DNA of 64,000 bases from Escherichia coli (GTDB lineage Bacteria; Pseudomonadota; Gammaproteobacteria; Enterobacterales; Enterobacteriaceae). The stretch lies in the NCBI RefSeq assembly GCF_044324875.1, contig NZ_CP172185.1, one strand, 5' to 3'. Shown here in pieces: positions 29,063 through 30,595 of this stretch (positions are counted from its first letter, which is position 1; each line of letters begins with the position of its first letter). The position numbers and the translations under genes are program-made. Under the pieces are notes generated by a model that worked only from the letters and a program-made list of their open reading frames with translations, was not told the DNA's origin and did not search any database.

Positions 29063-29205
29063 CATCTCGGGTGACTTATGGGCGATAAAACAGAGAAATC
29101 TTTTTGCCGCGTTCTCAAATTGCTGACAAGTGCTTGTTGTGAAATGCCGGATGCGGCGCAAACTGAACTGCACCCCAAATGTTGGACATAATCTGACATC
29201 TGAAG

Positions 29206-29736
29206 GTGCAGTTTATGAAACATTCATTTGAAGTAAAACTTGCCGCTGTAAATCACTACCTGGCCGGTCATGCAGGCATCATTTCTACGGCAAAACTCTT
29301 TCAACTTTCTCACACCAGCCTCTCACACTGGATTAATCTTTTTCTTCTTCACGGTCCTCGGGCACTGGATTGCAGACACAAGCGTAGCTATTCTCCTGAA
29401 GATAAACTTTGCGTGGTTCTTTATGCTCTCGGGCATTCTGAGTCTCTACCCCGGGTAGCTGCCCGGTTTAACATTCCCAGCCACAACACGGTTAAAAACT
29501 GGATAAAAGGCTACCGCAAATCTGGTAATGAGGCCTTTATCAGGCGCTGGAAGGAGAAAAGCATGACCCGTTCTGATGATACCCATGAAAACGAGGCAAA
29601 CATGACGCCGGAAGAGATGAAGAATGAGCTGCGTTATCTTCGCGCAGAAAATGCATATCTGAAAGCCATGCAGGAGCATCTCCTGGAAAAAAAGCGCCAG
29701 GAGCTGGAGAAAAAACGAAAGTCATCCGGAGCCTGA
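29206..29736 (+). CDS. IS3-family transposase OrfA (helix-turn-helix and leucine-zipper region)
   Basis: 176 aa; contains the slippery heptamer A AAA AAG at 29688-29694 in the OrfA frame. Confidence 0.85.
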   Translation: MQFMKHSFEVKLAAVNHYLAGHAGIISTAKLFQLSHTSLSHWINLFLLHGPRALDCRHKRSYSPEDKLCVVLYALGHSESLPRVAARFNIPSHNTVKNWIKGYRKSGNEAFIRRWKEKSMTRSDDTHENEANMTPEEMKNELRYLRAENAYLKAMQEHLLEKKRQELEKKRKSSGA

Positions 29737-29840
29737 GGTGCGGACACTGCCAGTCTGACCTGTTAAAGGCTGCAGGGCTGGCCAGAAGCACGCTGTACTA
29801 CCAGCTGTCACTGCAGAAGGCTAAGGACAAGTATGCTGAT

Positions 29841-30563
29841 GTGAAACAGCTCATAGCCTCCATCTTCCATGAACACCGGGGATGTTATGGGTACCGGCGG
29901 ATCCATTGTGAGCTTCAGAAAAGAGGTCTTAAGTTCAGTGGCAAAACGGTGCGAAAACTGATGCAACAGCTCGGCCTGAAGTCTCCTGTGCGCCTGAAGA
30001 AATACCGGTCTTACCGGGGAAATATGGGACTCGCTGCAGAAAATATCCTTCAGCGGCAGTTCAAAGCGGAAGCTCCCTGTGAGAAATGGGTGACAGATAT
30101 CACCGAATTCAGGGCTGGCGGACAAAAACTGTACCTGTCCCCGATACTTGATTTGTTTAACGGGGAAATCGTGGCGTGGGAAACGGCCTGCAGGCCTACA
30201 GAGGAGCTGGTGAAGCGGATGTTAAATAAGGGGCTGGAAAGCCTTGCTGAAGGGGAGAAACCGCTGCTCCACAGTGATCAAGGATGGCATTACCGGATAA
30301 AAAGTTATCAGTCCGCCCTGGCGGACAGAGGGTTAGTGCAGAGCATGTCGCGCAAGGGCAACTGCCTTGATAATGCGGTAATGGAGAACTTCTTTGGTCA
30401 CCTGAAAGAAGAAATGTACTATCGCCGGGACTACAGAAATGTAGAAGAGCTGGAAAATGCCGTTAACGAATACATAACTTACTGGAATCAAAAAAGAATA
30501 AAACTCAGTCTTGGGGGACTCAGTCCGGTAGAATACCGGACTGAGCATCAAAAAGCCGGTTAA
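29841..30563 (+). CDS. IS3-family transposase OrfB (DDE catalytic domain); probably expressed as an OrfAB fusion by -1 frameshifting
   Basis: The -1 frame is open from 29628 and encodes ...LARSTLYYQL... typical of OrfB N-termini; the track ORF starts at the GTG at 29841. Confidence 0.85.
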   Translation: MKQLIASIFHEHRGCYGYRRIHCELQKRGLKFSGKTVRKLMQQLGLKSPVRLKKYRSYRGNMGLAAENILQRQFKAEAPCEKWVTDITEFRAGGQKLYLSPILDLFNGEIVAWETACRPTEELVKRMLNKGLESLAEGEKPLLHSDQGWHYRIKSYQSALADRGLVQSMSRKGNCLDNAVMENFFGHLKEEMYYRRDYRNVEELENAVNEYITYWNQKRIKLSLGGLSPVEYRTEHQKAG

Positions 30564-30595
30564 CTGAAACTGTCCAGGTTTTGGGGTTCAGTTCA

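What the first reader, a model, noticed from the sequence alone, without database searches (positions are those of the whole stretch)
29164..30595. IS3-family element inserted precisely into the loop of a REP palindromic unit
Joining the flanks after removing one AAC copy restores a canonical palindromic unit. Targeting of palindromic units, the 1432-bp length and the IS150-group transposase organisation with an A AAA AAG frameshift motif are what I recall for IS1397. K-12 lacks this insertion, so it marks a strain difference close to the rhlE promoter region.
Basis: partly seen in the sequence, partly recalled or inferred. Interest (0 to 1): 0.4.

Follow-up and report, generated by a model that had tools for sequence, protein, structure and literature searches.

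The report
IS1397 inserted in a REP hairpin
This is an intact copy of the known E. coli insertion sequence IS1397, sitting in its usual target (the loop of a REP palindromic unit) between the 3' ends of ybiA and rhlE; it is an ordinary, already described kind of strain polymorphism.

Summary
Window 29164-30595 is a 1432-bp IS with TG...CA ends, 25-nt imperfect inverted repeats and an AAC direct repeat. It is 99.9% identical to full-length copies annotated 'IS3-like element IS1397 family transposase' in 1,707 of 5,426 complete E. coli genomes.

It encodes orfA (173 aa, HTH) and orfB (rve, DDE). These are joined by an in-frame A AAA AAG -1 slippery site into a 449-aa OrfAB. OrfB is 51% identical to IS150 InsK, 32% to IS3 InsF and 22% to IS2 InsD.

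Removing the IS and one AAC gives GCCGGATGCGGCGCAAACGCCTTATCCGGCCTAC. This matches the empty K-12 site except for one loop base and folds as a hairpin. Four other insertion sites also split GCCGGATGCG…ATCCGGC palindromes, in the same orientation, with 3-4 bp repeats.

ybiA (+) and rhlE (-) converge here, so the IS lies 137 bp past the rhlE stop codon and about 1.5 kb from its promoter.

The site is occupied in only 6 records (3 lineages). BH100 took an independent hit 1 nt away. IS621 occupies the neighbouring PU in other strains. Already known; low interest.

The parts
28580..29062 (+). ybiA (N-glycosidase YbiA, 160 aa), upstream neighbour; its stop is 101 bp before the IS
   Evidence: ORF list; PGAP annotation of the matching locus in ECA64 and K-12
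29146..29163 (+). Left half of the target palindromic unit (GCCGGATGCGGCGCAAAC), Y-type REP; its last 3 bases are the left copy of the direct repeat
   Evidence: Aligns to the intact K-12 unit; the same half-site flanks IS1397 at four other loci
29161..29163 (.). Target-site duplication, left copy (AAC)
29164..30595 (+). IS1397, complete copy, 1432 bp
   Evidence: 99.9% identity over 1-1432 to copies annotated as IS1397 family transposase; homology boundaries shared by copies at other sites
29164..29188 (+). Left terminal inverted repeat (IRL), starts with TG
   Evidence: 21/25 match to IRR
29215..29736 (+). orfA, 173 aa, helix-turn-helix DNA-binding protein
   Evidence: Pfam HTH_28 2.1e-17, HTH_Tnp_1 2.8e-9; 28% identity, E 2e-15, same length as IS150 InsJ
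29688..29694 (+). Slippery heptamer A AAA AAG for programmed -1 ribosomal frameshifting
   Evidence: Frame check and fusion translation; PGAP 'programmed frameshift' CDS with the same ends, 29215-30563
29694..30563 (+). orfB part of OrfAB: DDE (rve) catalytic domain; the -1 frame is open from 29628
   Evidence: Pfam rve 1.6e-21, rve_2, HTH_21; NCBIfam NF033516 IS3 family transposase, 385 bits against a cut-off of 160; 51% identity to IS150 InsK
30571..30595 (-). Right terminal inverted repeat (IRR), ends with CA
30596..30598 (.). Target-site duplication, right copy (AAC)
30599..30614 (+). Right half of the target palindromic unit (GCCTTATCCGGCCTAC)
30615..30649 (.). Linker of the mosaic element (AAAAGCATGCAAATTCAATATATTGCAGAGTTCAT). 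It resembles the L motif of BIME-1, which carries an IHF site; this is from memory of the BIME literature and was not tested.
   Evidence: Sequence; conserved in K-12 and next to other IS1397-bearing units
30650..30678 (-). Second, intact palindromic unit (Z1-type, GCCTGATGCGCTACGCTTATCAGGCCTAC on the - strand); target of IS621 in other strains
   Evidence: Pattern match; hairpin dG -8.6, z -3.4; IS621 inserted at GTAG|GCCTG in EC11
30733..32097 (-). rhlE (ATP-dependent RNA helicase, 454 aa), convergent with ybiA; its stop codon is 137 bp from the IS

Best explanation
Window 29164-30595 is an intact, probably transposition-competent copy of IS1397, an IS3-family, IS150-group insertion sequence. 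It inserted into the loop/3'-stem boundary of the Y-type palindromic unit of the REP/BIME element between the convergent genes ybiA and rhlE, duplicating AAC.

Shown here: its identity, boundaries, coding capacity, the restored target, the orientation-specific use of the same kind of palindrome at other loci, and the rarity and recurrence of this site.

Inferred from established IS3-family biology, not tested here: OrfA is made by normal translation. The OrfAB transposase is made by a -1 ribosomal slip at A AAA AAG. OrfAB binds the terminal inverted repeats and drives copy-out-paste-in transposition through a circular intermediate. The transposase itself recognises the palindromic unit as its target; this is the stated conclusion of Wilde et al. 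2003, as cited in PMC1525189.

The local consequence is the loss of one REP hairpin downstream of ybiA. No promoter is affected.
For: - **Identity.** The element is 99.9% identical over all 1432 bp to copies annotated 'IS3-like element IS1397 family transposase'. Full-length copies occur in 1,707 of 5,426 complete E. coli genomes.
- **Protein.** The only difference from the ECA64 copy is a synonymous C/T at 29265, so the protein equals WP_106361772.1.
- **Family.** NCBIfam IS3 family transposase scores 385 bits against a cut-off of 160. Pfam finds HTH domains in OrfA and rve domains in OrfB.
- **Frameshift.** The slippery heptamer is in frame and gives a 449-aa fusion protein.
- **Subgroup.** OrfB is 51% identical to IS150 InsK, 32% to IS3 InsF and 22% to IS2 InsD. 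OrfA is 173 aa like IS150 InsJ (E 2e-15) and shows no similarity to the 99-aa IS3 InsE.
- **Target.** The joined flanks equal the K-12 empty site and fold as a hairpin with z = -4.2.
- **Other sites.** Copies at barA/gudD (repeat GTTA), livF (GTAA), cysE/trmL (AAT), caiF/caiE (TGG) and in BH100 (GAG) all split GCCGGATGCG…ATCCGGC palindromes in the same orientation.
- **Literature.** IS1397 is described as an IS3-family element that inserts specifically into E. coli REP sequences. A CFT073 copy splits GCGGCGTG|AACGCC (PMC1525189 text and Additional file 13).
Against: - The ISfinder reference sequence and the primary IS1397 papers (PMC94167, PMC95333, PMC169884) were not available. The name and the '1432 bp' reference length therefore rest on PGAP annotation and on the common length of the genomic copies.
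- No promoter-like site was found in the IS by the consensus scan.
- The hairpin downstream of the slippery site is no more stable than shuffled sequence (z = -0.5), so a frameshift stimulator is not demonstrated.
- One copy (GN25, T6SS region) has neither palindromic flanks nor a direct repeat, so targeting is not absolute, or that copy was rearranged.
- Activity of this particular copy is not tested.
Confidence: 0.97

Rival explanations
1. It is a different IS3-family member (for example IS150, ISKpn1 or an unnamed relative) that merely resembles IS1397.
For: The ISfinder reference could not be aligned directly. A few 97-98.7% identical copies are labelled only 'IS3 family transposase' by PGAP (H35; H80 and H82).
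Against: The top matches, 99.9% identical over the full length, are all labelled IS1397 family. IS150 of K-12 is only 51% (OrfB) and 28% (OrfA) identical at the protein level. The targeting of palindromic units is the published hallmark of IS1397 in E. coli.
Confidence: 0.02
2. The element is a dead relic: a fixed, non-mobile copy that no longer transposes.
For: Activity was not tested. No consensus promoter was detected. The frameshift-stimulating structure is not significant.
Against: Both reading frames, the slippery site, both inverted repeats and the direct repeat are intact. An identical protein (WP_106361772.1) is encoded at several different loci in different strains, and copy number reaches 40 per genome. 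Both facts indicate recent transposition of this sequence variant.
Confidence: 0.1
3. The occupied state is ancestral, and K-12 and other strains lost the element by precise excision.
For: None specific. Recombination between the 3-bp repeats could in principle restore the unit.
Against: Only 6 records (3 lineages) of 5,426 genomes have the site occupied, and nearly all others carry the intact spacer. BH100 has a different repeat (GAG), displaced by 1 nt, which shows independent gain rather than shared ancestry.
Confidence: 0.01

Closest known systems
IS1397 (IS3 family, IS150 group; Bachellier et al. 1997; Clement et al. 1999; Wilde et al. 2001, 2003)
   Same: It has the same sequence (99.9% to annotated copies) and the same 1432-bp length as those copies. 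It shares the two-ORF organisation with an A AAA AAG frameshift. It inserts in the central part of a palindromic unit of a BIME, with a 3-bp duplication (3-4 bp at the other sites examined) and a fixed orientation relative to the unit.
   Different: Nothing of substance differs. This insertion site (ybiA-rhlE spacer) is rare: 6 of 5,426 complete-genome records.
IS150 of E. coli K-12 (insJ/insK)
   Same: OrfA is the same length (173 aa). OrfB is 51% identical. It is an IS3-family element with the same overlapping two-ORF (orfA/orfB) layout. Its slippery heptamer (A AAA AAG) and its 3-4 bp duplications are recalled from memory, not checked here.
   Different: It is a different element: 1443 bp, 28% OrfA identity, and not reported to target REP units.
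IS621 (IS110 family, REP-targeting)
   Same: It also uses REP palindromic units as targets. In strains EC11 and UTME-9 it sits in the very same ybiA-rhlE mosaic element.
   Different: Its recombinase is unrelated (DEDD/serine type, IS110 family). It has no terminal inverted repeats of the IS3 kind. It inserts in the neighbouring Z1-type unit at GTAG|GCCTG, not in the loop of the Y unit.

Membership tests
IS3 family | Two consecutive, partly overlapping ORFs (orfA with HTH, orfB with DDE/rve) and an OrfAB fusion made by programmed -1 frameshifting | tested here: met
   Pfam HTH_28/HTH_Tnp_1 in OrfA and rve/rve_2/HTH_21 in OrfB. A AAA AAG lies in the zero frame and gives a 449-aa fusion. NCBIfam NF033516 scores 385 bits against a cut-off of 160.
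IS3 family | Terminal inverted repeats ending 5'-TG...CA-3' and a 3-5 bp target duplication | tested here: met
   TGAAC...GTTCA ends, 21/25 inverted repeats and an AAC duplication; 3-4 bp duplications at four other sites.
IS3 family | Copy-out-paste-in transposition through a circular intermediate | not testable with these tools
   Needs detection of IS circles or junctions by PCR, or a transposition assay.
IS150 group of the IS3 family | Transposase closer to IS150 than to the IS3, IS2, IS51 or IS407 prototypes; long (about 170 aa) OrfA | tested here: met
   OrfB is 51% identical to IS150 InsK, 32% to IS3 InsF and 22% to IS2 InsD. OrfA is 173 aa, as in IS150, E 2e-15, with no match to IS3 InsE. 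The IS51 and IS407 prototypes were not compared.
IS1397 | Near-identity of nucleotide sequence to the reference element | tested here: inconclusive
   99.9% identity to many genomic copies that NCBI PGAP names 'IS3-like element IS1397 family transposase'. The ISfinder or GenBank reference sequence itself could not be fetched.
IS1397 | Specific insertion into the central part of palindromic units (REP) of BIMEs | tested here: met
   The flanks reconstitute the K-12 unit. Five further insertions (four loci plus BH100) lie in the same type of unit and orientation. Literature statement and CFT073 example in PMC1525189.
REP / palindromic unit (target) | Imperfect palindrome of about 35 nt, extragenic, highly repeated in the genome, matching the GCCGGATG...ATCCGGCCTAC consensus | tested here: met
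   The hairpin has z = -4.2. It lies between convergent genes. The flanks match at a median of 22 places per genome, at least 8. It matches 'REP31 (E. coli) TGCCGGATGCGGCGTA|AACGCCTTATCCGGCCTAC' from PMC1525189 file 13.

The most novel reading that the evidence does not exclude
The ybiA-rhlE mosaic element may be a recurrent landing pad. It has taken two independent IS1397 hits 1 nt apart (the window lineage and BH100) and IS621 hits in the adjacent unit. The IS1397 insertion removes the REP hairpin at the 3' end of the ybiA transcript and points the transposase gene at the 3' end of rhlE. It might therefore change ybiA mRNA stability or generate antisense RNA to rhlE. The recurrence is observed here; the expression effect is pure inference.
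Probability: 0.15. Interest if true: 0.2.

Novelty: already known. Interest (0 to 1): 0.08.

Why it matters
It matters little beyond strain typing. IS1397 and its preference for REP palindromic units were described between 1997 and 2003. This copy is a clean textbook example, useful as a lineage marker because only three lineages among 5,426 complete genomes have this site occupied. It also illustrates that REP/BIME elements act as safe-harbour targets for two unrelated IS families. Because the site lies between two converging 3' ends, no promoter or coding sequence is disturbed.

Tried and rejected
- **Primary papers.** The IS1397 papers (PMC94167, PMC95333, PMC169884) are not held. The reference length, the repeat length and the orientation rule could therefore only be checked empirically on genomic copies.
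- **Frameshift stimulator.** Folding of 29680-29790 gives a hairpin that starts at the last base of the heptamer, but z = -0.5, so it is not evidence.
- **Promoter and terminator scan of 28900-30900.** No sigma-70-like site was found, and the single terminator-like hit is no more than shuffles give.
- **Other copies in the window.** None was found. A 1-mismatch match to the IRL pattern at 26727-26742 lies inside dinG and is chance.
- **The repeat finder.** It did not report the terminal repeats, because the exact seeds are too short; they were aligned by script instead.
- **Window strain.** The idea that the window is strain ECA64 was rejected: there are 58 mismatches in 8.4 kb outside a shared block.
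- **File access.** Loci L003-L010 were not visible to run_python, so the junctions were compared with DNA alignment.

Full report
**Observation**

The sequence at 29164-30595 is a 1432-bp block. It begins TGAACTGCACCCCAAATG and ends CATTTT-like …GGGGTTCAGTTCA. The two ends are 25-nt imperfect inverted repeats, 21 of 25 identical, with the TG…CA termini typical of the IS3 family. The trinucleotide AAC occurs immediately outside both ends, at 29161-29163 and 30596-30598.

Six copies from different chromosomal sites were aligned across their junctions. Homology starts and stops at exactly these bases, so these are the true ends of the mobile unit. The last A of the element is invariant in all copies. 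The duplication is therefore 3 bp (AAC), not 4 bp (AAAC).

**Coding capacity**

- orfA (29215-29736, 173 aa) carries helix-turn-helix domains: HTH_28 at 2e-17 and HTH_Tnp_1.
- The -1 frame is open from 29628 to 30563 and carries HTH_21, rve and rve_2 domains.
- The heptamer A AAA AAG lies at 29688-29694, with AAA and AAG as zero-frame codons of orfA. A -1 slip gives an uninterrupted 449-aa OrfAB.
- The fused protein scores 385 bits against NCBIfam NF033516 'IS3 family transposase', whose cut-off is 160.
- NCBI PGAP annotates the same CDS ends (29215-30563) as a 'programmed frameshift' in the matching locus of strain ECA64.
- The hairpin predicted just after the heptamer is no better than shuffled sequence (z = -0.5). 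A stimulatory structure is therefore not shown.

**Identity**

A megablast search against 5,426 complete E. coli genomes finds full-length copies in 1,707 genomes. The best are 99.9% identical and uniformly annotated 'IS3-like element IS1397 family transposase'. Copy number per genome ranges from 1 to at least 40.

The only difference from the ECA64 copy is a synonymous C/T at 29265, so the transposase equals WP_106361772.1.

| K-12 prototype | Protein compared | Result |
|---|---|---|
| IS150 InsK | OrfB | 51% identical |
| IS3 InsF | OrfB | 32% identical |
| IS2 InsD | OrfB | 22% identical |
| IS150 InsJ (173 aa) | OrfA (173 aa) | 28% identical, E 2e-15 |
| IS3 InsE (99 aa) | OrfA | no similarity |

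The IS150-group assignment is supported.

**Target**

Joining the flanks after removing the IS and one AAC gives GCCGGATGCGGCGCAAACGCCTTATCCGGCCTAC. The K-12 ybiA-rhlE spacer, which is empty, carries GCCGGATGCGGCGTAAACGCCTTATCCGGCCTAC at the same position. The whole 235-bp spacer aligns colinearly.

The restored unit folds into a 12-pair imperfect hairpin (dG -12.3, z -4.2), and neither junction folds. The duplicated AAC is the last two loop bases plus the first base of the 3' stem. 'In the loop' is therefore essentially right.

The unit matches the E. coli REP consensus printed in PMC1525189 Additional file 13. That file also shows an IS1397 copy of CFT073 splitting GCGGCGTG|AACGCC. The flanks are multicopy in every genome, with a median of 22 places.

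The unit is followed by an A/T-rich linker and a second, inverted, intact unit of the GCCTGATG type at 30650-30678. From my recollection of the BIME literature this arrangement is that of a BIME-1 (Y unit, L motif, Z1 unit).

**Target specificity, checked independently**

| Site | Duplication | Reconstituted or flanking unit |
|---|---|---|
| barA/gudD | GTTA | GCCGGATGCGGCGTTAACGCCTTATCCGGCCTAC |
| livF | GTAA | palindromic unit of the same type |
| cysE/trmL | AAT | palindromic unit of the same type |
| caiF/caiE | TGG | palindromic unit of the same type |

All four have the GCCGGATGCG arm on the IRL side. This agrees with the literature statement that IS1397 inserts specifically into E. coli REP sequences and that the transposase determines this choice (PMC1525189).

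One copy, in a T6SS region of strain GN25, has neither palindromic flanks nor a duplication. It may be an off-target or rearranged copy.

The gene order in the window is:

- dinG, on - (annotated CDS 26310-28460; the ORF list extends it to an upstream GTG at 28595)
- ybiA, on + (28580-29062)
- the IS
- rhlE, on - (30733-32097)
- cecR, on + (PGAP start 32326; the ORF list gives 32314-32997)

. ybiA and rhlE converge, so the IS sits between their 3' ends, 101 bp and 137 bp from the respective stop codons. The rhlE promoter lies in the rhlE-cecR spacer about 1.5 kb away. The remark 'close to the rhlE promoter region' is therefore wrong.

What the insertion does locally is split the REP hairpin nearest to ybiA. 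The Z1 unit and a further GCCGGGCATAGCCCGGC hairpin remain between the IS and rhlE. Any expression effect would be on 3'-end formation or stability, or through antisense transcription. This is inference only.

**Population picture**

Only 6 records of 5,426 genomes have this site occupied. These are ECA64 and CB6837, each deposited twice, and BH100 and BH100N.

BH100 has the IS in the same unit and orientation. Its duplication is GAG, one base to the left, and its flanks are diverged. It is therefore an independent insertion.

The window differs from ECA64 by 1 base in 26817-31107 but by about 1-2.5% on either side. The window strain is therefore not ECA64, but it shares the haplotype block that carries the IS.

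**Mechanism (inferred from established IS3-family biology)**

OrfA and OrfAB are produced in a ratio set by frameshifting. OrfAB binds the inverted repeats and drives copy-out-paste-in transposition through a circular intermediate. Integration with a 3-4 bp stagger occurs into the centre of a palindromic unit recognised by the transposase.

**Verdict**

This is a correct identification of a known element at its known kind of target, with one wrong statement about gene geometry. Novelty: already known. Interest: low.

Noticed in passing
window 30653/30654 (Z1-type unit 30650-30678); L011 654-1932: In strains EC11 and UTME-9 the same ybiA-rhlE mosaic element carries a 1279-bp IS621 (IS110 family, also REP-targeting). 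It is inserted at GTAG|GCCTGATAAG in the unit next to the one used by IS1397. One BIME therefore serves two unrelated IS families.
   Followed up: partly
L012 (BH100) 1849-3280, equivalent to window 29146-30614: BH100 and BH100N carry IS1397 in the same palindromic unit and orientation, but with duplication GAG, shifted 1 nt, in diverged flanks. This is an independent hit on the same unit. BH100 has at least 40 IS1397 matches and a truncated ybiA.
   Followed up: partly
L018 601-665 (K-12 MG1655, yhhI-yhhJ spacer): K-12 keeps an unannotated 65-bp relic of the IS1397 right end (95.4% identity). All 14 rows sampled from the roughly 1,800 genomes that have a match but no full-length copy show the same 65-bp match. 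In K-12 the relic is still joined to a right half palindromic unit (TAAACGCCTTATCCGGCCTA), directly after the ISEc1/ISAs1-like transposase gene yhhI. K-12 therefore lacks an intact IS1397 but not all trace of it.
   Followed up: partly
L006 (strain GN25) 151-1582: An IS1397 copy in a type VI secretion region (DUF4123 gene / vasI) has no palindromic-unit flanks and no direct repeat, and it truncates the DUF4123 gene. It may be an off-target insertion or the product of IS-mediated rearrangement.
   Followed up: no
window 25680-34095 compared with L002: Identity to ECA64 is mosaic. There is 1 mismatch in 26817-31107, 28 mismatches in 25680-26816, and 29 in 31108-34095. This suggests a shared or recombined haplotype block around the IS.
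   Followed up: partly
window 23869-23945: A second BIME-like pair of inverted palindromic units (TTATCCGTCCTAC / TTATCAGGCCTAC) is present and is not occupied by any IS.
   Followed up: no
window 20000-22282: fiu (catecholate siderophore receptor) is an intact 760-aa ORF in the window, whereas it is annotated as frameshifted in the closest genome, ECA64.
   Followed up: no
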